DNA of 64,000 nucleotides, from assembly GCA_000954095.1 (NCBI GenBank), contig JYNY01000232.1:20424-84423 (forward strand), given 5' to 3'. Within the stretch, counting starts at the first letter, position 1. Each line of letters starts with the position of its first letter. The position numbers and the translations under genes are program-made. The stretch is from Candidatus Omnitrophus magneticus. GTDB taxonomy: Bacteria; Omnitrophota; Gorgyraeia; Tantalellales; Tantalellaceae. Shown here in pieces: positions 983 to 27,170 of the stretch. Below the pieces are notes generated by a model, which saw only the letters and a list, made by a program, of their open reading frames with translations, was not told the DNA's origin and ran no database searches.

Positions 983-985
983 AAA

Positions 986-3789: not shown

Positions 3790-3796
3790 AGGTTTT

Positions 3797-7989: not shown

Positions 7990-10602
7990 TTAAGCCGCGA
8001 TTAATGCCTGTCTCGCTTGGATATTATATTGTTCAATAATATCCTCAGAAACTTTCAAACTAGAAGGTAAAACCATAACAATATAACGGATAGTTTTTAA
8101 AATGTCTTGTGCCGCGCCATTAAGCAAAAGTTCTGTGTCGAAAATATTTTCATACTGATCTTTCACAAATTTCAGTATAGGAACATAAACTGAATTTATT
8201 TCATCTTCTTTAACGTCTAACGGAATACTCGCTGTCGCTAAAACTATATTTAACATGCCTACCATTTTAAGTAAATACCCTTCTAAGCTACCGGTATTGC
8301 CTACTCCTTGAATTGTCAAATTTATCTCTCCATACCCGAACTCACGCCCGTTCTCCCGAGTCTCAACAGCTATTAAAAAATTCCTACCGCCCTTATTAGA
8401 TGAAAATGGCATAGCCTTAATACACGCGCCTGTTTTCTCATTAAACATACGGCTGTATTCTTTTATTATTTCTATCTGCCCCTCGTTTAATCTGGATTCA
8501 TCATATCTTATCGTGTATTCCAATATTTTTTTAGACAGCACAGGATACAGCAAATCAAACCTCAAAAGGCGCTCAAAATTAATATCATTGCTAACACTAG
8601 TATCTATTTTATTTATTGCCTGTTTTCCTTTTTTTGAAACGACAATCAGGGTTGCCGCTTGTTTAAAAATTTTTTTCCATAAAACGCGGCCGTCATTATC
8701 TCTAATTTGTCTTAAAATAAATTCATATACTTCTTCATTTCTTCGAGCTGTGTCCCATAATAAAATATCAGCAATACTAGCCACATGTTCTTTATAAGCC
8801 AAAACAACACTTTCGCATGTGTTTGCAATCAAAACCGCTTTTTTATTTTCACTCAGAAGGGTTATTGCTTTTGAAATAATTTTTAACGATTTAGAAACTA
8901 TTAAATTTAATTCTCTTAAGCTATATCCGGCCTCGAGACTCGGCGCTATTTCATTTTTCTTTAAATATATTCCCCTTAAAGACGCGACTCCTGACATAAT
9001 AATTAAATCATATTTTTGAAAATCAGAAATATTATTGGCATCACCCTTATAAATTTTTACATTATTTTTTACTAAAATATCTCGGACAGAATTTTTATAC
9101 GACGGCTCGACGTCAATTCCGGTAAGCGCGCACCCGGCTTCTTTTGCCACACTGTATAACGCCGCTAAAAAAACACAATCTCCCGCGCCTATTTCTAAAA
9201 TGCTTTTAATATTATTTTCCTTTAAAGCCTTTGCCAGCGCGCAGTGAATATCCTGAGTCCCGTCAAAAAACCTCGCCCCAAGATTTGAAAAAATCCGCGC
9301 CAAAATTTCTTTATAACCGTCATGCGCCGCGTTTACGTTTAAAAGTTTATTCGATTCAAGAAACTTCCCGGAAGCTATATACATTTTTTCAAATTCTACG
9401 GCGCGGCGTGTCTCTAAAAAATCCATATTTGTCTCATTTTTAATATGACCTTTTTCTTTGCCGCGAATTTTATTTATTTTTAAAACAAGTTCTCCATTTT
9501 CTTTTATTACAGCTAAATCATACTTTTCTATATCCGAAAAATTAATATCTTCTTCAATAATCTCAACATTATTATTTTCCAATAAATAGTCAACGCCATT
9601 GCTATCCATGACATCACTATCTTCATTACTAACACACATAATTTTACCGCCGGCCTTTTTTAACGCGCCAGCGATACTGCATAAAAAATAAACATCTTCT
9701 CCTTCCATTTGAAAAATACTTTTTATGTTATTTTTTTTGAAGGCCTCGACTAAAGACATTTCCAATTCATAAACTTGGGTAAAATCCTGCATATTTAAAT
9801 GATAAAAAAGTTCCGCTAAAATTTTCTTGTATTCAATGGGAATATCAATACTATTAGATTTTTGCTGAATATAAATAAACTTTTCGGCAAGCTGATACAT
9901 CGCCCGCATTTTTTCAGGTTCAAAATTATTCTCCTTCAAATTTTCTTCCAGCGCGCCGCTACTTTTTTCTTTTAGCGGACTTAATTCTTTTTTTCGCGCA
10001 AAAAGAATTGCTTCATTCAAAGTTTTATGAGAACTAAATATATTTAAAAAATCAGGGTATTTTTGCTTTATAGTTTCTATAATTTTTTCATATGTTTCAT
10101 TCGGCATTTTGGAAATCAACTTTTCACGCTTAAAAAGAAAAACGCGTAACGCGTTCACCAAAATACCGTCAATATAATTGTTATCATCCGAACGAACGTT
10201 TAACTCTTTATTCAAAGATATTTTTTCCCGCGCGATTTTCTTAATTTTTTTCACAATATCTTTTTCCGCTAATTTTAAAAAAAATTTTATATCCTCTCTC
10301 CAAACACCCCGGAGAAGCCGTACTTTATCATCAAAAAGTTCCGAAGAAACTAAATGCGTAGCTTGTCCTGAAAAAAGCCGCACACAATCGGTATTACTTT
10401 TTTTTAAAAAATATTTTTCTTCATCCGTAAGAGCGAATCTAATGATATTACCTTGTTTTAAAAAAGTTGTGATTATATCTACTTTAACAGGCGGGTTATG
10501 TGATGCTGGAAAAATTCCTAGGCTGTAAGAACAAATTTCAAACAAAAAAATAAAAATAATAAATAATGAAATGCTTTTTTTAAAGTTAAAATTAAAAAAC
10601 AT
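7990..10602 (-). CDS. Large membrane-anchored protein with tandem methyltransferase-fold modules (first degenerate) and a shared C-terminal domain
   Basis: The track start at 10611 is TTG; the first ATG is at 10600-10602. It has an N-terminal hydrophobic segment (SISLFIIFIFLFEICSYSLGIF). KENNIKSILEIGAGDCVFLAALY...GIDVEP is SAM-MTase motif I (nt ~9170-9205). It is preceded by a paralogous copy, KKNNIKSIFQMEGEDVYFLCSIA (nt ~9685-9718), that lacks the GxGxG. Confidence 0.7.
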   Translation of the reverse strand: MFFNFNFKKSISLFIIFIFLFEICSYSLGIFPASHNPPVKVDIITTFLKQGNIIRFALTDEEKYFLKKSNTDCVRLFSGQATHLVSSELFDDKVRLLRGVWREDIKFFLKLAEKDIVKKIKKIAREKISLNKELNVRSDDNNYIDGILVNALRVFLFKREKLISKMPNETYEKIIETIKQKYPDFLNIFSSHKTLNEAILFARKKELSPLKEKSSGALEENLKENNFEPEKMRAMYQLAEKFIYIQQKSNSIDIPIEYKKILAELFYHLNMQDFTQVYELEMSLVEAFKKNNIKSIFQMEGEDVYFLCSIAGALKKAGGKIMCVSNEDSDVMDSNGVDYLLENNNVEIIEEDINFSDIEKYDLAVIKENGELVLKINKIRGKEKGHIKNETNMDFLETRRAVEFEKMYIASGKFLESNKLLNVNAAHDGYKEILARIFSNLGARFFDGTQDIHCALAKALKENNIKSILEIGAGDCVFLAALYSVAKEAGCALTGIDVEPSYKNSVRDILVKNNVKIYKGDANNISDFQKYDLIIMSGVASLRGIYLKKNEIAPSLEAGYSLRELNLIVSKSLKIISKAITLLSENKKAVLIANTCESVVLAYKEHVASIADILLWDTARRNEEVYEFILRQIRDNDGRVLWKKIFKQAATLIVVSKKGKQAINKIDTSVSNDINFERLLRFDLLYPVLSKKILEYTIRYDESRLNEGQIEIIKEYSRMFNEKTGACIKAMPFSSNKGGRNFLIAVETRENGREFGYGEINLTIQGVGNTGSLEGYLLKMVGMLNIVLATASIPLDVKEDEINSVYVPILKFVKDQYENIFDTELLLNGAAQDILKTIRYIVMVLPSSLKVSEDIIEQYNIQARQALIAA

Positions 10603-10834
10603 ATAACTCAAACCTTATATTATCCTCCCTTATCAAATATTTTAAAAATTATACACTATTTAACTTTAAAAATCAAATAAATTTTAAATTTGCATTAGTA
10701 TTTTTAAAAGCTATAATTTGTCATAAATAAATGTAATTACTAAGCGGATGATAATGAGTTCATCGTGTAAGAAGTAATATTTTTTTATTGCAAAATATTT
10801 TTAAAAAAAATCTTGAGATATAAATTATTTGGGT

Positions 10835-10923
10835 CGCCTAGTTCAAGCTACTAATGCAAAAAATATTAGTTTATAATAAATATTTTTTACCCTTTATTCT
10901 AAAATTGTTATAAACTTTTGATA
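10835..10923 (+). repeat. Intergenic repeat family 4, copy 2 (upstream of era)
   Basis: Aligns with copy 1 over ~89 bp, including the tail AAAATTGTTATAAA.TTTTGATA. Confidence 0.9.
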
Positions 10924-11031
10924 CTCAAAAATTAAAAGGAGCTCTATGCGTATCAAAAACAAATAGAACGAATATTATCTATTATACGCGCTACGCGACT
11001 ATCTTTTATCCTTCGCCTTAAAAAAGATTTA

Positions 11032-11040: not shown

Positions 11041-11046
11041 CCCGCC

Positions 11047-11943
11047 ATGACAAAATCAGGATTCGTATCAATAATAGGTCAACCGAACGTAGGCAAATCA
11101 ACACTTTTAAACAGCCTTGTTCATGAAAAAATAGCTATAATAAGTCATAAGCCTGAAACAACAAGGGATAGCATAAAAGGCATCCTTACAAAAGAAAACT
11201 GTCAAATTGTATTCATTGATACGCCGGGAATACACAAACCGCATGACCTTTTGGGAAAACTCATGGTTAATCAGGCATCCGCATCTATCCTTGACGGCGA
11301 TGTTGTTCTTTTTCTAACTGAAAAAAAAATAGCGCTTAATAAAGATGACTTGCAGATAATTGCCAAACTTCCTAACCCTAAAAACAATCAAAAAATTTTT
11401 CTTATCATAAATAAAGTCGATAAAATAAAAGATAAAACATTACTCTTACCTTTATTGGCTAAAGCCGCTGAAATATACCCCTTTGACGAGATAATACCAT
11501 TATGCGCGCTTAATAAAAATGATGTGGAAAAATTAACTCTTATTTTAGAAAAACATATGCCTGAAAATCCCTTCTTTTATCCTGAAGATTACATAACTGA
11601 TAAAGATAACCGTTTTATGATTCAAGAAATAATACGGGAAAAAATTTTAGGAGCGACACACGAAGAAATACCTCATTCCACGGCGGTTTTTATAGAGGAA
11701 ATGTCTGAGGACAAAGAAAAAAATCTTATAGATATACACGCTGTTATTTATGTTGAACGGCTGTCGCAAAAATCAATAGTAATTGGGAAATATGGATTAA
11801 AACTGAAAGAAATAGGCCAATTAGCGCGTATTGATATAGAAAAATTATTATCCCGCCGCGTCTACTTAAATCTGTGGGTCAAGGTATATGAAAAGTGGAA
11901 AAAAGATCCCCGCGCATTACAAGAAATGGGATATACCGAATAA
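11047..11943 (+). CDS. era: GTPase Era
   Basis: 298 aa with G1 GQPNVGKST, G3 DTPG and G4 NKVD, plus a C-terminal KH domain region (VIGKYGLKLKEIG). Confidence 0.95.
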   Translation: MTKSGFVSIIGQPNVGKSTLLNSLVHEKIAIISHKPETTRDSIKGILTKENCQIVFIDTPGIHKPHDLLGKLMVNQASASILDGDVVLFLTEKKIALNKDDLQIIAKLPNPKNNQKIFLIINKVDKIKDKTLLLPLLAKAAEIYPFDEIIPLCALNKNDVEKLTLILEKHMPENPFFYPEDYITDKDNRFMIQEIIREKILGATHEEIPHSTAVFIEEMSEDKEKNLIDIHAVIYVERLSQKSIVIGKYGLKLKEIGQLARIDIEKLLSRRVYLNLWVKVYEKWKKDPRALQEMGYTE

Positions 11944-12445: not shown

Positions 12446-15400
12446 TTATAACGATTCCAATACCGCGGCTTCCGCCTGAATATATTCTTTTATCTCACCA
12501 TAATTTATTCGCTGAATTTTCATAAAAATATTTCCTTTAATCAACGCGTCCAACAATTTTTTTGTGTCATAAGAATTAAACGAGCTAGGAGATTCTACTA
12601 ATTGTAAAAATAAACTCTGTATCTCTTTCCCCATTACACTGCCCAATTCACCGTTTCTTTCACTCTCGGACATTCGTGAAAAATCCGCTATTCCTATACC
12701 TAAACTAGAAAGAGCTACTATTGAAAACTTATTATTCATATTTTCGGTTAAAAAATTTCCCGGCACCATTGCCGCCATTTTGCTGACAGTTTCTCGCTCT
12801 CTTGCTACTTCTCCTGCTAAAGTTTTATATTTTTCCATACGCTCATTAAATTCGCGCGAAATCCTGCCGTCAATATCCACTTCACTATTAGCAAAAACAA
12901 GTATTCTCGCGTTATCATTTTCTTTAAAATTTTTTCGGGATGTAACGTCTTCAATTTTTTTATTCATTTCATGAACTGATAAAAAATATATTTTAAGATT
13001 CGCGCCGTATTCTCTGCTTATATACCTAGCGGTTTTATTGTTTACCTTCACATATTCCGCGCCGTTAAACAACTCGTCATTTGTATCAGCCTCTACAAAA
13101 ATATATGTAGGCGCATTATTAGGCCTTACAAGAGACAACACATCCCTGCACGATTTTGCCACATCCGATACTTTATCTTTTGACATCTCAATCAATCGAC
13201 TATTAACTAATTCAGGAAAAACACTGCGTAATACATTATCAGTAAAAAATTTATTAAAAGCATTACGTGTTTCTTTATCTTGACCAGCGAAACTTTTTAC
13301 AGCGAAATCAATATCTCTTTTATTTTGTTCTGATTGAAATTCAGGTGTAATACCATTTTCACCTGTAAGCGCCTTTGAAATAAACCGGGATAATCCAATT
13401 TTAATGATAATATTCCGCGCGTTTTTCTCATTATCCCCTTTAAATCTATCAATCAATATTTTATTTATTCCTATAAATCCATGAGACGCACGGTCCACAA
13501 AAAGGCTATAAGATTCATCAACAAGGCCTATAACCAAATTTTTAGGGATATTATCAATATTTCCCCGCGCGTCTTTTATTGCTTGCTCCATCAAATCTTT
13601 TATTGTATCGGGCGCTATTTCAAGTTCCGAAGAAAGGTATAAATTTACACTTCGCCCAAAAATATCCATGCTAACTTCCCTAATCCCTATATCTTTCGCG
13701 ATTTTCACAAAACCTTCATTATCCTTTATATTGAATATAATTTCGTTCCCGAATTCCGCGTCTTCTTTATTCGCCTTATAATCATTTTTATTAAGTTCCA
13801 TCGCATTAGCTAAAGACACTCTTAGATACAATTCATTATTAATCTCTTTTAAATTCACAATTTTATTAAAGTCTTCTTCTGTAATACCCGCGAAATCCCT
13901 TCTTGAAGAAAGGTCAAGACCCGGCTTCTTCGTTGCGCTAGGCATATTTTTTATTCTTTCATCTTCTTTTAAAATTTCTTCTTTAACCTGCGCTGGAGTT
14001 AAATACCGGCCTTCAGCATCTTTTAAATTATAATTTTTTATAAGCGCCTCTAAATTTAAAAATGGATTATTTATCTCATACCCATAAAAACCCCGCAGTA
14101 AATCAGTATTAGATTCCAACATTTCTAAAAAAAATTTTATTCCTTTGGCTAAATAAACTACCTTCTGACTCGATGGTATCTCTTCTTTTTCACTGCCTGC
14201 CTGTACGTCATTCATAACCTCAAAAGATATTTGTTTTTTACCATCAATAATGCTTATTTTACCATTACAAATTACGCCTGTTTTGCCATTCTCAGGCGTA
14301 AATTCTTTCATAAATAATCCTGAACCATGATCGTCCATTTTGCTCTCCGCTAGAATAAATCTAGGCATAAACCTCCACATTTTTAATCTCAAAGAATCAA
14401 AACCTATTACAAAATTCAAAGAATCATTTTCTTTTAAATTATTTATTTTATATTCATTTATATTTCTTTCATCTCTTGTGATATTTTCCGGTGTCGCGGG
14501 CCGAGGCTTCTTACCTTTCTTCTTTTCTATTTTTTCCCTCTCAGTTGACGTGCGATACTCATAATCATATATTTCATTGTCTTTATATCTCGATGTTTCT
14601 CCAACATTCGAATTCATAAAAATATACAATTCATTAATCTCCGCGGCCTTTACGACCAGTTCCAACTTCATAATCTCTTTTAATTGCTCTATCTCATTTG
14701 TCTCATTAATCTTTGACACAATACCTTTTTCCCTCATTATTTTCGATATCGAGTTTCCGTAAAGAACAAACTTCGAGTGATACTCTTTATTGTATTTTTC
14801 AATAGCTTTAGAAATATTATCATGCACATCTGAAATAATTTTAGATCCCTTAAAAATATTTAAAAAATCAGAATTTCTCTCTAACATTTGCTTAAAATCT
14901 TTACCTGCCTTTAAAAGAGCAAAATATGATTCCACCGGTAAATATCCCGCGGAATTAAATTTTTCAGCCGGTTTAAAAATAATTACCGTTTCATTCCCGA
15001 TTCTTTTTATAAACCCTTCGGCTAAATGAGAAATTCCATCTGTTTCATCACCTTCGGCATGCAATGAAGAAAAATCACGGCTACTCTCTCCCGCGTTAAA
15101 ATAAGGCACGGCCGTATCACCAACTCTAAAATCGCCAATCGTGAATTTTAATACATCTCCATCTTGCAATTGCTCCATACGATTTTCTAATTCTTTTATA
15201 CCTGACAAAATAATCCCTTCTTTAACCTCCTTAAGAGTAAATTCTTTTTTTATAATATCTTTTTGTTTTTTAGCATACTCTTCCGCTACTTTTTCGATAA
15301 CACTTATCATGCTGTCATAAGAATTTATTTTGGATAAATCATCCTGAGATATTTTTGAAAAAATAATCGGCTCTCTACCTTTAGCTATTTCGCCAGTTTT

Positions 15401-18400: not shown

Positions 18401-20017
18401 CGCGCCCCAGACTGACTCTCCTAAAGCATTAAATTTACTGGCTATTTGTATCATTGAAGTAGAAACTAAAAGAGAATTAAACTTAGTAATAATATCCGGC
18501 ATCCCTCCGGCTAAAAATTTAAAATAATGAGTTTCTTCTTTACCTGAACGGAACCTAGGCATTATGGATACATATGAAATACCGTTTGACTCGAAAAGTT
18601 TTAAAAGATTATCCGTATGAAAACCGCCTGTCATCATTATAGCCGCGCTCGAGCCGTTAGATAATTCCGTGAAACGTAAATTTGATAAAAAAGCAGAGTC
18701 TCTAGCAAAAGAAATTTTAAAAAAATCCTCTATTCTTTCGCGGTAAATATCGAGATTGCCAATATTTTTATCTAAATTTATTTTAAGATTATGCGCGGAG
18801 CTAAACCGGTTAATAATATCAATAAAAAATTTTATTGAGAAATCTGGTCTTTTAGATAAATATGATTTATACTGGCTCACAGTCAAAGAAAAATCAAAAA
18901 TATTTTTAATAATACCTACCCGGTTAGAAAGATCGTCAATTTCGCGTTCGCGGGGCTCCCTGAAAAGTTTTTCTTTTACCATATCTTCCAGACGGGATAA
19001 TTCTTCGGCGGTTTGGGCGTGATCCACTTTTTCATATAAAGAAACATATTCAATATACTGCTTTAAATTAATATAATTTTTAATATTAAAATTTATAGCC
19101 TTAGCGCTGGAAACAAGATATTCATAATAATCTTTGCGTGATATTCTATCGGCTTTATAATCCAGCGTCTTTTCTATAAATTTATTTTTTTCATACTTTG
19201 AAAATTTCTTTTCCAATTCTTCCGCGATAATCTTCGCATCTTTATCGGCTCTATCAAAATCTATTGTCTTTTCTTTTAAAAGGGATTGTTCCAATATATC
19301 CACATTCACGAAATACTTTTTATCTACACCCTTCTCTTTGGATATTTTTAGTAAAAATTTTAAATATTCCAAAAATTCTATATCTTGATTTTTATACCCC
19401 TCAAAAATTTTATCCGCGCCTATAAGTTCTTTAGAATAAACGACTCGTTTAATTTCAGACAAAGCTTCGCTTAATTGCCCAATATATTTTTTCGCCTCTT
19501 TTTTAAAAGTTAATGAATCCCTGAAAACTTTTAAATTTTTGAGATATAATTCTTTATCCTCAATACCCCATAATGTTACTTCTCCCATATTATGCACAGC
19601 AAAAACTTCAGCTCCATTCATTTCGCCGTTACGCAAAAAATAATCCGCTATATCCATCCGTATATCTTTATTTTTTACTTCCTTAAAAACATCCAAATTA
19701 TATGATCCCGCGCCGCCTTCAAGATTAATTAAATCTATACCATAATGCCTGACACAGCGGTCAATAATATCATTTATTTTTTTCTGACATTCATAGTTAG
19801 TATGCGCGTCCTGAACATGTATTATTAATTTATCCGGTCCGCCTTTATACCTATACTTGATATCACCTAAATACTCCGGCAAATCAAAATTCTGAATATC
19901 TAAAACATTTAAAATCCCCTCCGCTCGATCCGTAGAAAAAAAATATTTTAAGCCGGCGCAATATCCCAGTGCCGTTAAAATCAATGCTATAATAAAAATA
20001 CATCTGAACTGTTTCAC
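12446..20017 (-). CDS. Giant (2523 aa) membrane-anchored protein with an embedded PPDK-type ATP-grasp and phosphohistidine (dikinase) module
   Basis: GTG start at 20015-20017 with AGGAG 9 nt upstream, followed by an N-terminal hydrophobic segment. PPDK N-domain motifs GGKGAGLLDM, VSVRSGAPLSMPGAMDTILDI, GTAVNIQIM and QDIEFTVENGKLYILQTRN lie at nt ~16175-17065. The swivel-domain motif GGTTSHAANVARKLKKPAVV lies at nt ~15680-15945. No PEP/pyruvate TIM-barrel motifs follow. Confidence 0.85.
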   Translation of the reverse strand: MKQFRCIFIIALILTALGYCAGLKYFFSTDRAEGILNVLDIQNFDLPEYLGDIKYRYKGGPDKLIIHVQDAHTNYECQKKINDIIDRCVRHYGIDLINLEGGAGSYNLDVFKEVKNKDIRMDIADYFLRNGEMNGAEVFAVHNMGEVTLWGIEDKELYLKNLKVFRDSLTFKKEAKKYIGQLSEALSEIKRVVYSKELIGADKIFEGYKNQDIEFLEYLKFLLKISKEKGVDKKYFVNVDILEQSLLKEKTIDFDRADKDAKIIAEELEKKFSKYEKNKFIEKTLDYKADRISRKDYYEYLVSSAKAINFNIKNYINLKQYIEYVSLYEKVDHAQTAEELSRLEDMVKEKLFREPREREIDDLSNRVGIIKNIFDFSLTVSQYKSYLSKRPDFSIKFFIDIINRFSSAHNLKINLDKNIGNLDIYRERIEDFFKISFARDSAFLSNLRFTELSNGSSAAIMMTGGFHTDNLLKLFESNGISYVSIMPRFRSGKEETHYFKFLAGGMPDIITKFNSLLVSTSMIQIASKFNALGESVWGAGVIQAGKAAIEALDKLIQEEILKAGEAKGHKVIENIKSVGNINLVDGKVNVSFKMSDGSIKTILYESAFLHEKKNNVESVFKGESFDFYTSNDTSPTFLTMEQIGEKLKAAAGDVFSFVICEIIGKDNSKTIKIAMGPSTVFHSVLMKNIQQSPLYESAGASNVKWIHGTLSGANPNFNFQFKDKNAPTEEENASKVRMESAFQNLMDSINTGAVRIENPSKSVIFQDRITGEVIEYAPAKEGAMHSNIIRALNVEFAEGIKSLYKGNAPQVGSILDIINNKSNGSLYKIENGAVTVNTKYKNKIQKISEQLALLELVSKKNEDNIGFEDGLKSIFYDYSADNVDFFTVVRGAEKFSGKNIAITQFESSKDFELFAMANSDLYKALKNAYGSNVISKFYAGDKGLSYFKDVDVLDSNMDIVDITNKDELNKLVKGSERFLGALGGKGAGLLDMKHQKGLPVPDAFIITTNAFRKWYKVWNERFSEEVEKREKKQGMALSEQEKEEIQKNMPLLLNDSDELKDLKNSILEFFKKLREQNNSRPVSVRSGAPLSMPGAMDTILDIYDEKSLISAVEAVFRSWDSIDAKSGRRTSGFLVPDNLGTAVNIQIMRYASVPKYTKDVRNEKGNIIHEAGDVKQDVIDYLSKQSGLEIDTKNSFSGILNTRNSTSGENVFEANWARSLGEELVSGLEEGKNWNDLEKDFGEIAGELSKYAKVLEEYYGFPQDIEFTVENGKLYILQTRNMQVDGDMGIKFIRDLTLEKINKIKEDRAVSDAIKNEKIKILKEKAYETAKPYLETFQKSSLKMPLKDSELYRQILLSQGKPASNGAVSGELVMSSNALRELRSREKMNDTADNPRPFILVMEETEKGDMSAIELASGVIFLSGGTTSHAANVARKLKKPAVVATDILVNKNGYLVKANESITISRESCADYDGLWGDLVKLGYLDSKGNVLGKAGLVKGYQEINWEEFTKKDYTELQKEDIYTRLIGARMNVFYSIDGKTGEIAKGREPIIFSKISQDDLSKINSYDSMISVIEKVAEEYAKKQKDIIKKEFTLKEVKEGIILSGIKELENRMEQLQDGDVLKFTIGDFRVGDTAVPYFNAGESSRDFSSLHAEGDETDGISHLAEGFIKRIGNETVIIFKPAEKFNSAGYLPVESYFALLKAGKDFKQMLERNSDFLNIFKGSKIISDVHDNISKAIEKYNKEYHSKFVLYGNSISKIMREKGIVSKINETNEIEQLKEIMKLELVVKAAEINELYIFMNSNVGETSRYKDNEIYDYEYRTSTEREKIEKKKGKKPRPATPENITRDERNINEYKINNLKENDSLNFVIGFDSLRLKMWRFMPRFILAESKMDDHGSGLFMKEFTPENGKTGVICNGKISIIDGKKQISFEVMNDVQAGSEKEEIPSSQKVVYLAKGIKFFLEMLESNTDLLRGFYGYEINNPFLNLEALIKNYNLKDAEGRYLTPAQVKEEILKEDERIKNMPSATKKPGLDLSSRRDFAGITEEDFNKIVNLKEINNELYLRVSLANAMELNKNDYKANKEDAEFGNEIIFNIKDNEGFVKIAKDIGIREVSMDIFGRSVNLYLSSELEIAPDTIKDLMEQAIKDARGNIDNIPKNLVIGLVDESYSLFVDRASHGFIGINKILIDRFKGDNEKNARNIIIKIGLSRFISKALTGENGITPEFQSEQNKRDIDFAVKSFAGQDKETRNAFNKFFTDNVLRSVFPELVNSRLIEMSKDKVSDVAKSCRDVLSLVRPNNAPTYIFVEADTNDELFNGAEYVKVNNKTARYISREYGANLKIYFLSVHEMNKKIEDVTSRKNFKENDNARILVFANSEVDIDGRISREFNERMEKYKTLAGEVARERETVSKMAAMVPGNFLTENMNNKFSIVALSSLGIGIADFSRMSESERNGELGSVMGKEIQSLFLQLVESPSSFNSYDTKKLLDALIKGNIFMKIQRINYGEIKEYIQAEAAVLESL

Positions 20018-20096: not shown

Positions 20097-22274
20097 TTAC
20101 CTCTCGCTACGACTCAAATCAGACAAAAACCGCGGCGGCACATTATACCCAAGACTAACAGCCTTATCACAATATTCACGGGCTAATAAAAAATTTTTCT
20201 CCGTGTAATAAAATACCGCTAAATTAAAATACGGCCGGGGGTCTCTGGAAGAAAATTCCAGCGCCTTTTTAAAAGAAAACACTGCCAATTCTTTATTGCC
20301 TATTTTGAAACTTATAAGCCCCAAATTATTATAAGCATCTTTATTTTGAGGATTCCGTTCCACGGCTTTTTCGCATAAATTAAGAGCTTCTTCTTTATTT
20401 CCTAAATCAGCTAAAATCATGCCTAAATGATAATATGGCATTACATCATCCGGCGCTATATTTATAAGGTTATAAAAAATCTCAACGGATTTTTTCTTTT
20501 CACCCATAAGAGCGTATGTAATACCCAAATTTTGATAACTCAAAGGATACGATGGATCTATGGTTATCGCCTTTTGATATAATTCTATCGCCCGTAAAAA
20601 ATCTTTTTTATTCCGATATATCGTAGCTAAATTGTTATACGCGAATTTATCCGTGGGATTTATTTTAATTGCCGCTTCATAACTTTCTAAAGCATCATTC
20701 ATCCTGCCAAGCTCACTATAAACATTCGCGAGATTATTATAAGCCTTCCCATTTTCAGAATTTAATTTTATGGCTCTTTTATAAAAAGTTATCGCGTTCT
20801 CCTTCTCTCCCTTGGAGTTATAAAGATTCGCTAAATTATAAATCGTTTTAACATCATTAGAATTTTTCTCAAACGCTTTTATATAAAATTTTTCAGCTGT
20901 TTCCAAATCGCCTTTTTCAGAAAACAAAATGCCAAGATTGTTATACCCATTCGCGTCATTAGGGGAAAGCTCTATTGATTGTTCATATAAAGGAATCGCT
21001 GATTCAATACGGCCTTCTTTCACATACGCCAAAGCAAGATTATTAAGCGCCTTATAACTTTCGGGATTATATTTTATTATTCTTTCATAAAAAGTTATTG
21101 GATCTTTCCAATAAAAATTTTGGAAGAATGTTGAAAAACCGTAAAAAACGCATAAAACCGATGTAAGGCCTATAGCCGCTAATTTAAAAAGACGCGTTTC
21201 ATAAATTTTTATAATAATACCGGCTAAGCCGATAAAAAAACTAATTGAAGCAATATACAAAAAATGTTCTGCCATAAAAAACGGCGCTGGGAAAATATTC
21301 GCGTACGGAATTAAATTTATAAAAAACCAAAAAATAAAAAATGCCACTGCCTTCTGTTTTCTAGATAAAACCGCGTATAATAAAAAAACCGCGGTAATAC
21401 TACAGCCGAAAATAGCCTTAAAGTTAAATGGGCTAAAAATCTTATCGCCATAATCCATATGTAATCCAAATGGCAAAATCATAATCCTAAAATATTCAGT
21501 AACCGCTACAAAAAAACCGGGTATTCTAGCTAAAGAGCCGTCAAGATTTGACGGAGAAAGAACCGGCGCTAAAATAGTAGCGCGCATGACTAAATACAAA
21601 AACGTAATAAACGCGATAGGCGCGAATGCTCTAATAATTATTTTCTCGCGATACGCGTAATGATACGCTATTATTAAAATAGGAAAAATCACGCTTACTT
21701 CCTTCGAAAGAACAGCCAAAATATAACTTAAAATCATCAAACAATAAAAAAATATATTCTTGGATTTCATAAAATTCAGATATAACGCCATACCGGATAA
21801 AATAAAAATAGCGGATAAAGTGTCAGCTCTTGCTGAGATATACGATACAGACTCAACATGAATAGGATGCGCCGCGTATAAAATACCGCATAAAAATGCT
21901 AAAACCCTATTTTTAAATAACGCATTTATAAACCACAAAAGAGCCATCCCCGCTAACATATGAAACACCACTGATAACGCGTGATATCCTCGAACATCTA
22001 ATTTCCACAAAGAATAATCAAACATATAGGTAAGCATTTGAATAGGACGATAATAAGTGGACGGGCCGTCATCTCCGCCGGCACCGATATCTTTTATAAG
22101 AACATCCTTAATATTATTCCACTTTTTTATATGATTATTATTCTCTACTAAAAACTCATCATCCCAAACAAATTTTCCGTTTAAAGAACTACTGTATGCG
22201 AAAATAACAATCAAACAAATACACGTCGCACTGAATACATAAAAATATTTATTTTGAGAAAAATTTTTAAACAT
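20097..22274 (-). CDS. TMTC/PMT-like polytopic membrane protein fused to a C-terminal TPR array (putative protein O-glycosyltransferase)
   Basis: 725 aa. The N-terminal ~400 aa contain multiple hydrophobic helices with WDDEFLV and YYRPIQMLTYMFDY motifs, typical of GT39/TMTC-like enzymes. The C-terminal ~330 aa are 34-residue TPR repeats (AYNNLA...G....A...Y..AI...P). Confidence 0.75.
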   Translation of the reverse strand: MFKNFSQNKYFYVFSATCICLIVIFAYSSSLNGKFVWDDEFLVENNNHIKKWNNIKDVLIKDIGAGGDDGPSTYYRPIQMLTYMFDYSLWKLDVRGYHALSVVFHMLAGMALLWFINALFKNRVLAFLCGILYAAHPIHVESVSYISARADTLSAIFILSGMALYLNFMKSKNIFFYCLMILSYILAVLSKEVSVIFPILIIAYHYAYREKIIIRAFAPIAFITFLYLVMRATILAPVLSPSNLDGSLARIPGFFVAVTEYFRIMILPFGLHMDYGDKIFSPFNFKAIFGCSITAVFLLYAVLSRKQKAVAFFIFWFFINLIPYANIFPAPFFMAEHFLYIASISFFIGLAGIIIKIYETRLFKLAAIGLTSVLCVFYGFSTFFQNFYWKDPITFYERIIKYNPESYKALNNLALAYVKEGRIESAIPLYEQSIELSPNDANGYNNLGILFSEKGDLETAEKFYIKAFEKNSNDVKTIYNLANLYNSKGEKENAITFYKRAIKLNSENGKAYNNLANVYSELGRMNDALESYEAAIKINPTDKFAYNNLATIYRNKKDFLRAIELYQKAITIDPSYPLSYQNLGITYALMGEKKKSVEIFYNLINIAPDDVMPYYHLGMILADLGNKEEALNLCEKAVERNPQNKDAYNNLGLISFKIGNKELAVFSFKKALEFSSRDPRPYFNLAVFYYTEKNFLLAREYCDKAVSLGYNVPPRFLSDLSRSER

Positions 22275-22664: not shown

Positions 22665-25600
22665 ATGCCTTATGTTATAAAAAAAAATATCTTAAATTTA
22701 ATAAAAATTTTGTTTAATACATTATTTTTTATTTATACGTTAAACTCCTATACTTATTCTGAAATACTTCCAACAACTCTTCAAATTCCATCTTTTTTCA
22801 ACACAATAAAAGATGCTGAATTTTTTGAAAATTTATTATTAGCGCATTTAAAATACGCGACTACAGGAATAGATATAAACAATTTAAATTACAAATTAAT
22901 GCCTGCTTTTTCAGACGATATAAATGGTGTAATAAACTTTCAAGAAAAAAAGCGCGAAAATAATTATTGGGCAATTCCCTGCGCTATTCACATTAAAACA
23001 AACAATTGCACTTTTGAATATACCGCTACCATAAAAGAGAATGAAGATATATCAATACAAAGCATATTGCCAAAAAATTTTTTATCCCAAAATAATACCG
23101 TCAAAAATAAATCAAAAAATCAAATATCAGAAGAAAATTATTATGCGGATAGGCCGCTTGATGGGATTCCCAAGTCAGAAATAAAAAATATACTCATATT
23201 AACTGAAGATAAAATTTTAGGAGTAAAGCTTGGCGAAACAATCATAGAGTTATGGCCGCTCGCCACACCATTACTAAAAAAATTTCCAGACGCTAATATT
23301 TTAATAGCTTCTGAATTCTCTGAAATTTTTAACGGAAAAACATTTCACAATAAAATAAAAATACTGCCTCAAGAAACTCTCGCGGAATTAAGAACTTCAC
23401 CAGAAAAAATTGAAAAATTTTTTAATACCAATAATTTTGATTTGATTTTTTATATAGGGATGCATGCCGGCATTGTAAAAAAAATAGTTTATTCTAAAAA
23501 CAATACAAAACCAAAGCCGTATCTTTGCCAAATAGTATCCCCATTAAGCATAACACAGGCCTTTTCTACGGCTATTAAAGAAACAAATTTAATGTCTGAC
23601 AATAACTATAATTTTATTGCCTTTTGGGACACGCATGGGAAAAAATACATAATCAATACAACTAATATCTTCAAAAATATTATGAAATCATCAAAAAATT
23701 CAAATTTTGAATTTGGATGGGCAGGTATATGGAATTTAACTATTAAAATGTATGAAAGCCTCGGGCTTAAAGTAAACCGTAAAAATTTATTACAACTTAA
23801 ACTTTCAAACGAAGAAACTTTCGGCGCTATTAAATGGCTAAAAAACTTATTTGACGAATCAACCAAAGAATATAAACATATAAAATTTGATCCCCAAAAA
23901 AAAATTATTGTTGTCAATGTATACGCTGTCACGCAAAAGAACATTCTCACCGAAGATGAATGGTCAGGCATAATCGCAAAACTAGCTCATGAAATAAAAG
24001 ACGCGTATTTTATTTTTCCAAGAGGCGGAAAAATGGACCCTGATTATGAGTATGTTGAAAGAATCGTCCGTAACGCGAAAATAATTTTAAAAGAGGATGT
24101 TACGCACAAAGATAATCTAAATGATATACAATTAGTCCTTCCAAGAAAAAATATATATCCGTATATGCATGATCTATTGGGCATCTCAAACGCTGTTGTT
24201 TCATTAGACACAGGCTTCAGCCATCTTGCTTCAGGAGTTTATAATCTTCCGTTATGCCTTATAACAAGCCCTAATATAATCCATTGGATACCCCCTAAAG
24301 ACAATATCTTCACAATCTTTTTTCAAGGCGTATTTCAAAATGCTTCTCGCTATCTAAAAGAAACTGAAATAAAAAAACAGGAACGAATAAACAATGAAAT
24401 TAAAAACTTAGCGGATTGGCTGAATAAACAAGCAAGCATGAAACACACTCTTTCTAAAAGACTTTCTTCTCTTTCTGATGAATACGCAAGCATACTTGAT
24501 AAAAATCTATTAAATCATTATTCAATAGACGCGCCTTTGGATGAAAAAAAAATACATGATTTCGCCGCGAATATAGTTAAACAATTAAAGCTTCCTGAAA
24601 GTATTACACCTGAAATAAAATTTGTTAATACCAGCGAGCAAATCGGAATTGAATTATCCAGATTTTCAATAAAGTTACGCGCGTTTTCTAACAAAAAAAC
24701 ATATTTATTAATAGACGCAAACAATAAAAATCAAGAATACCTATCCGATATTTTAAATAATGAGTCAAACAAAATTGAATTTATCCATGAATTACTAGGC
24801 CGATCTATAACACGTATAACCTTTCCCGAATTCAGCGATAAGGACTTAAACACAAAAGACTCTATCCCGCAAAATTATTTTAAAAATTCTATAAAGACAC
24901 GAAATATCTTAGAAGAACTAATAGCGCGGCTAATAACTATAGAAGCTATTTTAAAACTTTCACGTGAAAATATTAATACCGTTTCCAATAAAGAAATAGA
25001 ATCATTATTAAAAATATACATCCCCGGCAATACAACATTAACACTGGAAAATATAAAAAAAATATTAGAACACAATACTCAAAACACGGAATTATCAAAT
25101 ATATTTTTATCCGATATCCCGTTAAATCAGCAGGAAAAAATATTATCTCTTTTAAATGAAAAATATCTGCCGCGTCTTAATTCATTATTCGCGTATTGGC
25201 GGAATGAAGAAGTAGCAATTAAAGAGCCATTAACCCTACTCCCTAAAAAAGAAATAAAAAATGTACTATTATATTATGACAATGTAGCGCCGTTTAAACT
25301 CGGAGAAGTCATAATGGAACTTTGGCCGCTAGTAGCAGGATTTCTTCAAGACTTTCCTGACTCTAAAATATATATAGCGGCGCCGCTAGCGGAAGTTTTT
25401 AAAGGCCAATATTTTGGAGAAAGGATAAAAATATTGGACCATTCGAAAACCACACTATTAAAATCCTCCGCTGAAACAGTCACGCATTTTGTTTCAGATA
25501 ATCATATAAATCTTATTATATCGCTTGATACTACAAGAAATAATTTCATAAAAACTTTAAGTAATTATCCACGCCTCATGGATAAACCTTATTTACTACA

Positions 25601-27170
25601 AATTGATTCTATAACTAACAACTTATCAACATTTCTTCCCACGATTGACAAAAATATTACAAAAAAATTTTCATTTCATGACAAATTAAACATAAAATAT
25701 AAAATTTCAGGATCAGAAAATTTATTAAAAACTATTACCAGCCCAGATGACTATTCTACCCCTGCTTTATATACTACCATAATAAATCAACCACAAAACA
25801 TTTTTCCTCTAGCAGGGGGATGGCTCTTATCAATAGAAAGATGCCGTATTCTAGGGCTTAATATATCTAAAGACAATATGCCTGAAATGAAAATATCTAC
25901 GGATGAATCTGAAAACGCTACAAAATGGATATGGGATATATGCCAAAAAGAAAATCACTGCACCATGAATTACAATAAAAAAATAGTTATTATTAATACC
26001 TACGCGGTAACACAAAATAGTTTTTTATCAGAAGAAGAGTGGGCAAATATTATACAAAGGATTATAACAAAAACTAAAAATATTATTTTCGTCTTCACTC
26101 ATGGCGGAAAAATGGATGAAGACTATTACCATATTGAGAGAATAATAAAAAAAATAAAAATAAAATTAGCCAGCGACACATCATTAAATTATAAACATTC
26201 TATAAAAAAAATAATTCTCACCAGAGAAGATATATCTCCCAAAATACATAACTTAATGGGAATAGCAAGCGCGTGTGTAACAATTGACACAGGTTTTAGT
26301 CATATGGCAAGCGGTATATTCAACATTCCTACTGCTATTTTTACGTCTAAAAATATAGAACATTGGCTACCTCCAAGAAAAAATATAATACCATTATACC
26401 TCCTTACCACTAACGATTATTTAATGTACGATTTCACATGGAATGAAAAAGAAATATCAGCCCGCAAAAAAAAACTCTATAACCACACTCAAAAAATAAT
26501 AGATTGGATAAATAGCGACAAGATAAAAACATTAGGAGAAATTCTTGACAACATCAATAATAACGATGCTTTAAGAATAAAAAACAACAAACATTCAGAA
26601 ATACTAAAAAATTTCATTGATTCATTATTATCCATTACTATAAATAAAAAAATAATTCTCGCGTTCGGATACGAAGACCTGTCTTCCCGCAATACTAAAT
26701 TATCAGGAATTATAAAAAGTTTTAAATTTTTAAAAAACCACATTTATTATAAAAGATTTCTTCAGAATTTTATTGTTATAGAATCTTCCAAGCGGGAAAT
26801 ATGGGGAAAGATAGAACCGTATACAAAGGATGCCGATTCATCTATATTTTTATTCAGCAGTAACACCAAAGACATAAATAAAGATGGGCTAAAATCTAAT
26901 AATATTCATAAAATCATTATTAATGACACAGGATTCCCTCCTGACGCGTATTATCCGCTTTTCGAAATAATATTATTATCCATTGCTCATAAATATCCTG
27001 ACAATAACATCGTGAACATGAAAGAGATTTTCGATAAGTCTAATATTTTATATATGGAAGAAAAAAATAAAGAATTGATTTTTTATCTTTTGCCGAATCC
27101 TATAATCCTGCGTGAATCTGATTTAATAAAAGCATACGCGTATCGAAAAAAACTAATTACCGCGTTATAA
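22665..27170 (+). CDS. 1501-aa protein with two tandem GT9 (heptosyltransferase)-like modules and a shared C-terminal domain
   Basis: N-terminal hydrophobic segment. Module 1 spans nt ~23180-24320 and module 2 nt ~25250-26400, and they are clear paralogues (KLGETIIELWPLATPLLKKFPDANILIA / KLGEVIMELWPLVAGFLQDFPDSKIYIA; VSLDTGFSHLASGVYNLP / VTIDTGFSHMASGIFNIP). These motifs resemble the GT9 LGD...P...LK..FP and DSGpmHLAaAlg.P signatures. Confidence 0.75.
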   Translation: MPYVIKKNILNLIKILFNTLFFIYTLNSYTYSEILPTTLQIPSFFNTIKDAEFFENLLLAHLKYATTGIDINNLNYKLMPAFSDDINGVINFQEKKRENNYWAIPCAIHIKTNNCTFEYTATIKENEDISIQSILPKNFLSQNNTVKNKSKNQISEENYYADRPLDGIPKSEIKNILILTEDKILGVKLGETIIELWPLATPLLKKFPDANILIASEFSEIFNGKTFHNKIKILPQETLAELRTSPEKIEKFFNTNNFDLIFYIGMHAGIVKKIVYSKNNTKPKPYLCQIVSPLSITQAFSTAIKETNLMSDNNYNFIAFWDTHGKKYIINTTNIFKNIMKSSKNSNFEFGWAGIWNLTIKMYESLGLKVNRKNLLQLKLSNEETFGAIKWLKNLFDESTKEYKHIKFDPQKKIIVVNVYAVTQKNILTEDEWSGIIAKLAHEIKDAYFIFPRGGKMDPDYEYVERIVRNAKIILKEDVTHKDNLNDIQLVLPRKNIYPYMHDLLGISNAVVSLDTGFSHLASGVYNLPLCLITSPNIIHWIPPKDNIFTIFFQGVFQNASRYLKETEIKKQERINNEIKNLADWLNKQASMKHTLSKRLSSLSDEYASILDKNLLNHYSIDAPLDEKKIHDFAANIVKQLKLPESITPEIKFVNTSEQIGIELSRFSIKLRAFSNKKTYLLIDANNKNQEYLSDILNNESNKIEFIHELLGRSITRITFPEFSDKDLNTKDSIPQNYFKNSIKTRNILEELIARLITIEAILKLSRENINTVSNKEIESLLKIYIPGNTTLTLENIKKILEHNTQNTELSNIFLSDIPLNQQEKILSLLNEKYLPRLNSLFAYWRNEEVAIKEPLTLLPKKEIKNVLLYYDNVAPFKLGEVIMELWPLVAGFLQDFPDSKIYIAAPLAEVFKGQYFGERIKILDHSKTTLLKSSAETVTHFVSDNHINLIISLDTTRNNFIKTLSNYPRLMDKPYLLQIDSITNNLSTFLPTIDKNITKKFSFHDKLNIKYKISGSENLLKTITSPDDYSTPALYTTIINQPQNIFPLAGGWLLSIERCRILGLNISKDNMPEMKISTDESENATKWIWDICQKENHCTMNYNKKIVIINTYAVTQNSFLSEEEWANIIQRIITKTKNIIFVFTHGGKMDEDYYHIERIIKKIKIKLASDTSLNYKHSIKKIILTREDISPKIHNLMGIASACVTIDTGFSHMASGIFNIPTAIFTSKNIEHWLPPRKNIIPLYLLTTNDYLMYDFTWNEKEISARKKKLYNHTQKIIDWINSDKIKTLGEILDNINNNDALRIKNNKHSEILKNFIDSLLSITINKKIILAFGYEDLSSRNTKLSGIIKSFKFLKNHIYYKRFLQNFIVIESSKREIWGKIEPYTKDADSSIFLFSSNTKDINKDGLKSNNIHKIIINDTGFPPDAYYPLFEIILLSIAHKYPDNNIVNMKEIFDKSNILYMEEKNKELIFYLLPNPIILRESDLIKAYAYRKKLITAL

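What the first reader, a model, noticed from the sequence alone, without database searches (positions are those of the whole stretch)
7990..27170. Three large anchor-bearing enzymes with different chemistries share one unrecognised C-terminal domain
Three proteins encoded within 20 kb share the same layout: one N-terminal hydrophobic segment, a different catalytic core, then a collinear C-terminal region of about 175-220 aa. The cores are a SAM-methyltransferase fold (7990-10602), a PPDK-type dikinase module (12446-20017) and two GT9-like modules (22665-27170). The shared regions lie at nt 7993-8532, 12449-13114 and 26646-27167. Aligned strings read directly from the translations include IRYDESRLNEGQIEIIKEYSRMFN / FGYEDLSSRNTKLSGIIKSFKFLKN. 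A second pair, NFLIAVETRENGREFGYGEINLTIQGVGNTGS / SIFLFSSNTKDINKDGLKSNNIHKIIINDTGF, keeps identical 31-residue spacing ending in [ND]TG. Others are ANLKIYFLSVHEMNKKIEDV / LQNFIVIESSKREIWGKIEP, and KKLLDALIKGNIFM / MKEIFDKSNILYM / AQDILKTIRYIVM. The extreme C-termini also correspond: VLPSSLKVSEDIIEQYNIQARQALIAA, LLPNPIILRESDLIKAYAYRKKLITAL and MKIQRINYGEIKEYIQAEAAVLESL. The alternating hydrophobic-strand/helix pattern suggests an alpha/beta fold. I cannot assign it to a named domain. My inference is that it is a common docking, oligomerisation or substrate-recognition module bringing methylation, phosphorylation and glycosylation to one target, such as a surface polymer or protein. The neighbouring TMTC-like protein and the S8/GH-like protein lack it.
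Basis: partly seen in the sequence, partly recalled or inferred. Interest (0 to 1): 0.8.

Follow-up and report, generated by a model that had tools for sequence, protein, structure and literature searches.

The report
Conserved C-terminal caps on Omnitrophota enzymes
Three large enzymes encoded side by side in Candidatus Omnitrophus magneticus each end in an unannotated C-terminal domain; two of these domains belong to large, strictly C-terminal families with the same predicted fold layout, but sequence comparison cannot show that all three are one domain.

Summary
Partly confirmed. The window comes from Candidatus Omnitrophus magneticus: B is 100% identical to a database protein from that organism.

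**What holds**
- The genes, their catalytic cores and every quoted string are present at the stated coordinates.
- B's tail (aa 2283-2523) belongs to a C-terminal domain family of about 240 aa. This family is almost always paired with a 490-aa N-terminal "head" on Omnitrophota proteins whose enzyme cores differ widely.
- C's tail (aa 1306-1501) belongs to a second family of about 195 aa. It sits at the extreme C-terminus of more than 110 protein clusters, 110-6938 aa long, with other cores.
- No Pfam, NCBIfam or PDB match covers either tail.
- AlphaFold models of the B and C tails show the same order of helices and strands. Both give the same weak lumazine-synthase-like Foldseek hits.
- Their profiles align collinearly, though weakly (E≈0.005).

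**What does not hold**
- Pairwise tail alignments score no better than shuffles.
- The family HMMs do not detect each other's tails.
- A's tail is conserved in one ortholog, but only its last ~30 residues resemble the B-type ending (P≈4e-5).

**Reading**
These are probably related, cargo-independent C-terminal targeting or docking caps. Their function is untested.

The parts
7990..10611 (-). Gene A (OMAG_001178; 870-873 aa): N-terminal hydrophobic segment, two tandem methyltransferase-like modules, C-terminal tail
   Evidence: ORF. 100% identical to P0074. Weak Methyltransf_12/BioC matches at aa 455-545. Ortholog L004:16929-18953 at 36% identity, E=9e-82.
7993..8523 (-). A tail (aa ~697-873), 'A-type'. 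Conserved in the single ortholog found. Not detected by the B-type or C-type HMMs.
7993..8082 (-). A terminal motif (last 30 aa: ...IVMVLPSSLKVSEDIIEQYNIQARQALIAA). Fits the C-terminally anchored B-type weight matrix.
   Evidence: P=7e-5 to 1e-3 and P=3.7e-5. In-register but non-significant hhalign match to the L011 family (E=0.076).
12446..20017 (-). Gene B (2523 aa): hydrophobic N-terminus, 490-aa head, PPDK_N plus mobile His domain, long unassigned region, B-type tail
   Evidence: 100% identical to P0001, Candidatus Omnitrophus magneticus. Pfam.
18428..19903 (-). B N-terminal 'head' domain (aa 39-530; QDAH, EGG and TGGFHT motifs). Absent from A and C.
   Evidence: HMM 596 bits. Alignment A3. 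At least 485 relatives in metagenome contigs. No PDB sequence match.
16160..17077 (-). B PPDK_N (ATP-grasp) module, aa 981-1286
   Evidence: Pfam E=3.3e-36.
15671..15832 (-). B PEP-utilizers mobile domain, aa 1396-1449
   Evidence: Pfam E=1.8e-12.
12449..13171 (-). B tail (aa 2283-2523), 'B-type' C-terminal domain
   Evidence: HMM built without B scores 112 bits, E=2e-34. hhalign probability 99.4%. AlphaFold pLDDT 90.4, pTM 0.87.
22665..27170 (+). Gene C (1501 aa): head, two GT9-like modules (a tandem duplication of a P0079-like unit), C-type tail
22674..23063 (+). C N-terminal head (aa 4-133, LQIPS motif), shared with many proteins that carry the C-type tail
   Evidence: phmmer E down to 6e-12 against P0143, P0079, P0154, P0115 and others. 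An LQVQS-like motif is present in 29 of 69 full-length members.
25911..26387 (+). C Glyco_transf_9 match, second module (aa 1083-1241)
   Evidence: Pfam 29.2 bits, cut-off 22.
26580..27167 (+). C tail (aa 1306-1501), 'C-type' C-terminal domain
   Evidence: More than 110 representative proteins match only this stretch, at their own C-termini. Family HMM scores 150 bits. AlphaFold pLDDT 80.3, pTM 0.78.
20097..22274 (-). Gene D: multi-pass membrane protein with TPR repeats. It lacks the tail. A PMT_2/TPR gene (TPR region about 30% identical to D) sits in the matching position in the syntenic locus L083.

Best explanation
A, B and C are large Omnitrophota proteins built on one plan. Each has an N-terminal hydrophobic, signal-like segment, a family-specific N-terminal head, an exchangeable enzyme core, and a globular alpha/beta C-terminal 'cap' that always ends the protein.

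B carries the B-type cap (about 240 aa, paired with a 490-aa head). C carries the C-type cap (about 195 aa, paired with a ~100-aa head containing an LQVQS-like motif). A carries a third, shorter cap.

The B-type and C-type caps most likely share one fold: an N-terminal helix, four beta-alpha units, a helical segment, a beta-hairpin or strand ('hhLP'), and a terminal amphipathic helix ending in [A/S][A/L]. They are probably distant homologs. A shares at least the terminal strand-helix element.

Shown here: the domain families exist, they are strictly C-terminal, the cores are swapped, and the predicted element order is the same. Inferred: the cap does not depend on the cargo and serves as a targeting, anchoring or docking module, recognised through its conserved free C-terminal end. 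It would direct differently equipped exported enzymes to a common destination, such as the cell surface or envelope, a scaffold, or a partner head domain.
For: **B-type cap**
- An HMM built from 43 relatives scores B at 112 bits.
- After iteration, 85-89 hits per round; all but one hit, in the final round, end at the C-terminus. No reversed decoys are hit.
- 47 of 53 complete head-bearing ORFs carry the cap.
- Carriers have very different cores: protein kinases, PPDK modules, SF1 helicase, phosphoglucomutase, phosphofructokinase, triose-phosphate isomerase, phosphoglycerate kinase, sigma-70, methyltransferases.

**C-type cap**
- 155 representative clusters at E<=1e-3. More than 110 match only C aa ~1308-1500.
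- 116 of 118 matches end within 5 aa of the target's C-terminus, in proteins of 110-6938 aa.
- Cores include Pkinase, ELFV dehydrogenase, B12-radical SAM, HEAT repeats and metallophosphoesterase.

**Same fold layout**
- The two AlphaFold models have the same element order.
- Both give only weak PDB hits, with many lumazine synthase entries in common.

**Profile-level links**
- hhalign of the C-type profile against the B-type profile gives a collinear alignment of 107-128 columns, E=0.005-0.006. No 8-column block shuffle reaches the observed score (0 of 60).
- B-type endings score above null against the C-type end HMM (Mann-Whitney p=7e-18).
- The head-less L011 family links 'LP'-type endings to the B-type cap at 97.4% probability.
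- A's ending scores P=3.7e-5 against the B-type matrix.

**Gene neighbourhood**
- Tail-bearing genes co-localise in the window, in L083 and in L007. A's ortholog lies about 5 kb beyond the head match that marks the start of a B-type gene in L004; that gene's extent was not determined.

**N-terminal segments**
- 67 of 71 B-type and 46 of 69 C-type carriers have an N-terminal hydrophobic segment.
Against: - No sequence method joins the three tails at accepted significance.
  - Pairwise scores equal shuffles.
  - Cross-family HMM searches are negative.
  - hhalign gives only 6% probability for B against C. With 15-column block shuffles, 6 of 60 reach the observed score.
  - A against the B-type or C-type profiles gives nothing.
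  - The C-type end HMM scores A's ending at only P=0.017.
- A four-stranded alpha/beta sandwich is a common fold, so an identical element order could be convergence.
- The models could not be superposed here, and A's tail was not modelled.
- No sorting or secretion gene recurs near the 79 B-type loci.
- The cores use ATP, SAM or nucleotide sugars. That fits poorly with simple export to the periplasm.
- Export was inferred from hydrophobicity and A-x-A-like sites only. No dedicated predictor was run.
Confidence: 0.45

Rival explanations
1. Three unrelated C-terminal extensions. The resemblance noted by eye comes from shared composition (AT-rich genome, proteins rich in K, I, N and E) and from the generic strand-helix periodicity of alpha/beta domains. 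Only family-specific domains exist.
For: - Pairwise scores equal shuffles.
- The B-type and C-type HMMs do not cross-detect.
- A-type against the other two gives nothing.
- The Era C-terminus scores as well as C's on the B-type matrix.
- The '[ND]TG' match is not conserved.
Against: - The two models have the same element order and overlapping weak PDB neighbours.
- The profile alignment is collinear and in register, and beats 60 of 60 8-column block shuffles.
- Terminal motifs are enriched at the family level (p about 1e-15 to 1e-17).
- A's ending scores P=3.7e-5.
- The architecture is identical and the genes cluster repeatedly.
Confidence: 0.25
2. Head-to-tail docking modules. This would assemble different enzymes into ordered non-covalent chains or sheets.
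For: - Each cap type goes with its own head type. The B-type cap is paired with the 490-aa head in 47 of 53 complete ORFs. The C-type cap goes with the LQVQS head.
- Several paralogs sit in tandem in one locus.
- Lumazine synthase, which forms cages, is among the weak structural neighbours.
Against: - Head-less proteins carry B-type-like caps (the L011 family and L1_2751).
- No test of interaction or co-evolution was possible.
- The lumazine synthase similarity is weak (TM-score 0.2-0.45).
Confidence: 0.15
3. A regulatory or ligand-binding domain, flavodoxin-like or SIS-like, that controls the attached enzyme in cis. Under this reading it is not a targeting device.
For: - Weak Foldseek neighbours include SIS domains, PPK2 and sugar-binding proteins.
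- The C-type family has conserved polar positions, in the AFD, KKDP, YIDE and YYPL..E stretches.
Against: - Strict placement at the extreme C-terminus in all but a handful of roughly 200 family members, with a conserved final dipeptide, is unusual for a regulatory domain.
- The cap sits on non-enzymatic carriers such as HEAT repeats.
- No known nucleotide- or phosphate-binding loop motif was noted in the consensus sequences.
Confidence: 0.1

Closest known systems
Type IX secretion C-terminal domain (Por_Secre_tail, Bacteroidota)
   Same: A conserved domain at the extreme C-terminus of many Sec-signal-bearing proteins with unrelated functional domains, present in many copies per genome and independent of cargo.
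   Different: The T9SS domain is a beta-sandwich of about 80-100 aa, whereas these tails are alpha/beta and 175-240 aa. There is no Pfam or NCBIfam match. The phylum is different, and no T9SS genes were seen among recurrent neighbours.
CWB2 and SLH cell-wall-anchoring modules of Firmicutes surface proteins
   Same: A shared anchoring module attached to many different exported enzymes. From my own knowledge, CWB2 is also an alpha/beta Rossmann-like fold.
   Different: There is no sequence match. CWB2 occurs in three tandem copies and at either end of the protein, whereas here there is a single copy, always at the C-terminus.
Docking domains of modular polyketide and non-ribosomal peptide synthases
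   Same: Paired N-terminal and C-terminal modules flank variable enzymatic content in very large proteins encoded side by side.
   Different: Those docking domains are short helical peptides of 20-80 aa in cytoplasmic proteins. Here the head is 100-490 aa, the cap is 175-240 aa and globular, and the proteins carry signal-like N-termini.
Lumazine synthase / flavodoxin-like three-layer alpha/beta sandwich
   Same: It is the most frequent weak Foldseek neighbour of the C model and a frequent one of the B model (whose top-ranked hits are SphA). The four-stranded parallel sheet with flanking helices matches.
   Different: E-values are 0.01-0.1 and TM-scores 0.2-0.45. There is no sequence similarity. 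The tails also have an extra helical segment, a beta-hairpin and a terminal helix.
Giant Omnitrophota proteins ('Archaeovorins'; West-Roberts et al., bioRxiv 10.1101/2023.11.21.568195)
   Same: Same phylum and the same domain repertoire (PPDK_N, HEAT, radical SAM, TPR), with signal-bearing N-termini.
   Different: Those proteins are 30,000-85,000 aa. A search of that text for C-terminal, N-terminal, C-terminus and sorting found no description of head or cap modules.

Membership tests
B-type C-terminal cap (defined here from relatives of B) | Match to the family HMM built without the query | tested here: met
   B scores 112 bits, E=2e-34, over aa 2283-2523. A and C get no hit at their C-termini, even with --max at E<=100 to 1000.
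B-type C-terminal cap (defined here from relatives of B) | The domain ends at the protein's C-terminus and co-occurs with the 490-aa head | tested here: met
   85-89 hits per iteration; all but one hit, in the final round, are C-terminal. 47 of 53 complete head-bearing ORFs carry it. B has both. A and C lack the head.
C-type C-terminal cap (defined here from relatives of C) | Match to the family HMM, located at the extreme C-terminus | tested here: met
   C scores 150 bits over aa 1306-1498, and 116 of 118 family matches end at the C-terminus. A and B get no hit.
One superfamily uniting the A, B and C tails | Significant profile-profile similarity between the families | tested here: inconclusive
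   - B against C: E=0.005-0.006, probability 6%, collinear; 0 of 60 8-column and 6 of 60 15-column block shuffles reach the score.
- A against B or C: no signal.
One superfamily uniting the A, B and C tails | Same fold (order and topology of secondary-structure elements) | tested here: inconclusive
   The B and C models have the same element order and shared weak PDB neighbours.
T9SS C-terminal domain (Por_Secre_tail) | Match to the Pfam or TIGRFAM models, and a beta-sandwich fold | tested here: not met
   No such hit in Pfam or NCBIfam. The models are alpha/beta.
Pyruvate, phosphate dikinase (B core) | Three domains: PPDK_N, the mobile His domain, and the PEP/pyruvate-binding TIM barrel (PF02896) | tested here: not met
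   Only PF01326 and PF00391 are found. NCBIfam scores lie far below the equivalog cut-offs (173 against 843). B therefore has a PPDK-type ATP-grasp plus swivel module and is not a complete PPDK.
Glycosyltransferase family 9 (C core) | Pfam Glyco_transf_9 above the gathering score | tested here: met
   29.2 bits against a cut-off of 22 for aa 1083-1241. The first module matches only weakly (TIGR02193, E=2e-5).
Class I SAM methyltransferase (A core) | Pfam methyltransferase model above the gathering score | tested here: inconclusive
   Methyltransf_12 scores 18.1 bits against a cut-off of 30. A motif-I-like ILEIGAGDC is visible and is conserved in the ortholog.

The most novel reading that the evidence does not exclude
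Omnitrophota, and at least one Auribacterota genome, possess an undescribed sorting or assembly system. In it, hundreds of signal-bearing proteins carry matched N-terminal heads and C-terminal alpha/beta caps around exchangeable enzymes of cytoplasmic type: kinases, dikinase modules, glycolytic enzymes, methyltransferases, glycosyltransferases, helicases and sigma factors. The caps are the address tag that delivers these enzymes to the cell surface or into prey or host cells. A, B and C are three cargoes of this system, acting together within a glycan-modification locus.
Probability: 0.2. Interest if true: 0.85.

Novelty: new variant of a known kind. Interest (0 to 1): 0.6.

Why it matters
Omnitrophota are uncultured, often ultra-small bacteria suspected of being predatory or parasitic. 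Their very large proteins are largely unannotated.

This work shows that many of these proteins are built on a 'head - exchangeable enzyme - C-terminal cap' plan, and that neither module has an entry in Pfam, NCBIfam or the PDB. That gives three things:
- two or three new domain definitions that would annotate hundreds of orphan regions;
- a concrete handle (the cap and its conserved free C-terminus) for finding the machinery or scaffold that recognises it;
- a testable explanation for why enzymes that depend on ATP, SAM and nucleotide sugars carry signal-like N-termini.

If the caps are address tags, they would define a new protein-sorting route in the PVC group.

Tried and rejected
**Sequence comparisons that gave nothing**
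- BLASTP and Smith-Waterman on the tails: no signal. The positive control B against P0040 also failed, so these tests are uninformative.
- The search for homologous proteins with A's tail alone found nothing, not even A's own database entry. With full-length A it returned only A itself.
- Exact look-ups of C and Era returned nothing.
- Iterated B-type HMM searches over 1481 ORFs from 82 loci never recruited A, C or L1_2751.
- An A-type seed (A plus its ortholog) recruited nothing else.
- hhalign of A-type against the B-type and C-type profiles, in local and global mode with block-shuffle nulls, gave no signal.

**Database searches that gave nothing**
- Pfam and NCBIfam gave no tail hits. A weak HigB-like_toxin hit at C aa 1274-1343 (17 bits against a cut-off of 27) was rejected as noise.
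- PDB sequence profiles: the B tail matched only de novo designed Rossmann-like proteins, which reflects idealised alpha/beta composition and not homology. C's tail and B's head matched nothing.
- Foldseek against the PDB gave no hit at E<1e-3 for either model.

**Other checks**
- Clustering the neighbours of the 79 B-type loci to find recurrent sorting or secretion machinery turned up only housekeeping families and antisense ORFs.
- Three Omnitrophota papers on giant proteins contain no description of these modules.
- The possibility that A or C carries B's head domain was tested and rejected.
Full report
**Source and genes.** The window is from Candidatus Omnitrophus magneticus (phylum Omnitrophota, PVC group). 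B is 100% identical to P0001, and A to P0074 (OMAG_001178), both from that organism. The ORFs are:
- A, 7990-10611(-)
- Era-like GTPase, 11047-11943(+)
- B, 12446-20017(-)
- D, a multi-pass membrane protein with TPR repeats, 20097-22274(-)
- C, 22665-27170(+)
- E, an S8 peptidase, 27186-31964(-)

**Cores.**
- A has a sub-threshold methyltransferase match (18 bits against a cut-off of 30). It contains two tandem methyltransferase-like modules.
- B has PPDK_N plus the mobile His domain, with no hit to a PEP/pyruvate-binding barrel. It is therefore a PPDK-type phosphotransfer module and not a complete dikinase.
- C has one Glyco_transf_9 match above threshold and a second weak one.

**Direct test of the claimed similarity.** BLASTP finds no tail-to-tail hit at E<10. 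Local and semi-global alignment scores of the three tails sit on the mean of residue shuffles. The test has no power for these sequences, however. B against P0040, shown below to carry the same domain, also scores at the shuffle mean.

**B's tail is a real domain.**
- A search with full-length B returned 73 proteins of 1400-4300 aa. Those that carry an organism name are almost all from Omnitrophota, with one from Auribacterota.
- They share only B's first ~500 aa. Their Pfam content varies widely: protein kinases, PPDK modules, SF1 helicase, FHA, cNMP-binding, M48 protease, phosphoglucomutase, phosphofructokinase, triose-phosphate isomerase, phosphoglycerate kinase, sigma-70, methyltransferases, HD domains.
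- Their C-termini share a clear consensus...G.hhh.I.kIDyeEIrDY..AqEAVlrSL.
- An HMM built from 43 relatives, without B, hits B aa 2283-2523 at 112 bits. hhalign gives 99.4% probability.
- A metagenome scan with the head alignment confirmed at least 485 relatives, and 79 loci were fetched.
- In a local set of 1481 ORFs, 47 of 53 complete head-bearing ORFs carry the tail. There were 85-89 tail hits per iteration, and all but one hit (in the final round) end at the C-terminus. No reversed decoy is hit.
- AlphaFold2 with a 39-sequence alignment gives pLDDT 90.4 and pTM 0.87. The model has an N-terminal helix, four beta-alpha units, a helical segment, a short strand pair and a terminal helix.
- Nothing in the PDB matches at E<1e-3. 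The sequence profile hits only designed Rossmann-like proteins.

**C's tail is a second real domain.**
- An exhaustive phmmer search of 1.84 billion representatives with C aa 302-1501 gave 155 hits.
- More than 110 of them match only C aa ~1308-1500, and the match lies at the extreme C-terminus of proteins 110-6938 aa long. In the family HMM search, 116 of 118 matches end within 5 residues of the C-terminus.
- The consensus ending is LNIeSi...g.LIFkLLPdAe.yD.qELIkrYAaLKRaLiAA.
- Carrier cores include Pkinase with Laminin_G_3, ELFV dehydrogenase, B12-radical SAM, HEAT repeats and a metallophosphoesterase.
- Many carriers also share an N-terminal segment ending in a WANP-like motif (22 of 69) and a ~100-aa head with an LQVQS-like motif (29 of 69). 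C aa 4-133 is homologous to these heads.
- AlphaFold2 with 35 sequences gives pLDDT 80.3 and pTM 0.78.

**Are the B-type and C-type tails the same domain?**
- Neither HMM detects the other family.
- Profile-profile alignment is collinear over 107-128 columns. It pairs strand 3, strand 4, the hydrophobic helix and the terminal strand-helix. E is 0.005-0.006 and probability is 6%.
- The score of 23.8 exceeds all 60 shuffles made with 8-column blocks (14.1±2.1). Six of 60 shuffles made with 15-column blocks reach it.
- The two models have the same element order, apart from one extra long helix in B.
- Both models draw the same weak Foldseek neighbours, with many lumazine synthase entries in common.
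- B-type endings score well above null against a C-type end HMM (p=7e-18).
- I judge a common fold and distant homology likely, at about 0.7, but not demonstrated.

**A's tail.**
- A has no database homolog other than itself.
- One ortholog appeared among the fetched loci: L004:16929-18953, 675 aa, 36% identity across the methyltransferase module and tail, E=9e-82. It lies about 5 kb beyond the head match that marks the start of a B-type gene; that gene's extent was not determined.
- The tail is therefore conserved. But an A-type seed recruits nothing else, and profile comparison with the B-type or C-type profiles is null.
- The ending does resemble the B-type consensus. With a C-terminally anchored weight matrix built from B's relatives, A scores P=7e-5 to 1e-3 and P=3.7e-5, second only to B among about 45 C-termini in the window.
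- C scores P=0.002-0.016 on the same matrix, no better than Era.
- 'LP...AA' endings like A's occur on other head-less proteins next to B-type genes: the L011/L006/L020 family, L002's 932-aa ORF, L060, and L001's 2751-aa helicase.
- The L011 family aligns to the C-terminal 91 columns of the B-type profile at 97.4% probability. It aligns to A's last 42 residues in exact register but not significantly (E=0.076).
- The conserved core of the putative superfamily therefore appears to be the last 40-90 residues. A's membership rests on that region, at a probability of about 0.6.

**Context.**
- A B-type giant, a GTPase gene, a C ortholog (P0079, 34% identity; C is a tandem duplication of such a unit) and a PMT_2/TPR gene are neighbours in L083, mirroring the window.
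- In L007, an ORF of more than 3187 aa with a C-type tail directly precedes a B-type gene.
- The window's large genes lie between a nonulosonic or diamino-sugar pathway (NeuB, DegT, PglD-like, dehydratases, formyltransferase) and GT2 and UDP-GlcNAc 2-epimerase genes. This is compatible with a role in glycan or protein glycosylation (inference).
- No secretion or sorting gene recurs among the neighbours of the 79 loci.

**Mechanism.** Four properties are the hallmarks of cargo-independent targeting, anchoring or docking modules such as the T9SS C-terminal domain, CWB2/SLH domains or synthase docking domains:
- strict C-terminal placement;
- a conserved final strand-helix and terminal dipeptide;
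- signal-like N-termini;
- swapping of unrelated cores.

None of those known families matches by sequence or fold. I favour a targeting or docking cap (confidence 0.45). The rivals are head-to-tail docking (0.15), a cis-regulatory ligand-binding domain (0.1), and no relationship between the three tails at all (0.25). The papers consulted do not describe these modules.

**Verdict.** The notable result is wider than the finding itself: two or three unannotated, phylum-wide C-terminal cap families, plus matching heads, on Omnitrophota enzyme carriers.

Noticed in passing
window 18428-19903 (-), B aa 39-530: An unannotated ~490-aa N-terminal head domain with invariant QDAH, EGG and TGGFHT motifs. 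It has at least 485 relatives in metagenome contigs and no Pfam, NCBIfam or PDB match. Its carriers hold cytoplasm-type enzymes (kinases, glycolytic enzymes, sigma-70, helicases) behind signal-like N-termini.
   Followed up: partly
window 22665-27170 (+): C is an internal tandem duplication. Both aa 34-639 and aa 852-1500 align to the single-module 842-aa ortholog P0079 (L083:10001-12529). Only the second copy keeps the tail.
   Followed up: partly
window 7990-10611 (-), A aa ~290-370 and 455-545: A holds two tandem methyltransferase-like modules. The first has a degenerate SAM motif (QMEGEDVYFL against ILEIGAGDCVFL). The ortholog in L004 has only one module.
   Followed up: partly
window 92-7563 and 34207-36862: The large genes are flanked by sugar-pathway genes. 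On one side: formyltransferase, NeuB, a weak GT2-like ORF, PglD-like acetyltransferase, DegT aminotransferase and two dehydratase/epimerases. On the other: GT2 and UDP-GlcNAc 2-epimerase.
   Followed up: partly
L083:1-17909 compared with window 7990-27170: A conserved neighbourhood: B-type giant, GTPase gene, C ortholog and PMT_2/TPR gene. L083 also has a separate 867-aa PPDK_N protein without a signal-like segment, head or cap.
   Followed up: partly
L001:1343-9598; L011:6686-9457; L006:865-6489; L020:5036-9553; L002:15925-18720: Head-less large proteins next to B-type genes, one of them an SF1 helicase of 2751 aa, end in 'LP...[AS][AL]' motifs. The L011 family matches the C-terminal half of the B-type cap at 97% hhalign probability.
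   Followed up: partly
window 1-64000: GC skew is about -0.2 from 1 to ~56 kb, where nearly all genes are on the minus strand. It turns to about 0 or positive at 56-62 kb. tRNA-Phe lies at 57305-57380.
   Followed up: no
window 60445-62602 (-): Two overlapping ORFs look like an IS21-type element: the first ends with an IstB-like sequence (...DRIVHYSTIINISGHSYRAKSLKK). This was judged by eye only.
   Followed up: no
window 27186-31964 (-), E: The S8 subtilase domain covers only aa 135-406 of 1592.
   Followed up: no
tool behaviour: The word-indexed homolog search with A's 234-aa tail missed A's own database entry, which the full-length query did find. Negative results from that tool on short, fast-evolving queries are therefore weak.
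   Followed up: yes
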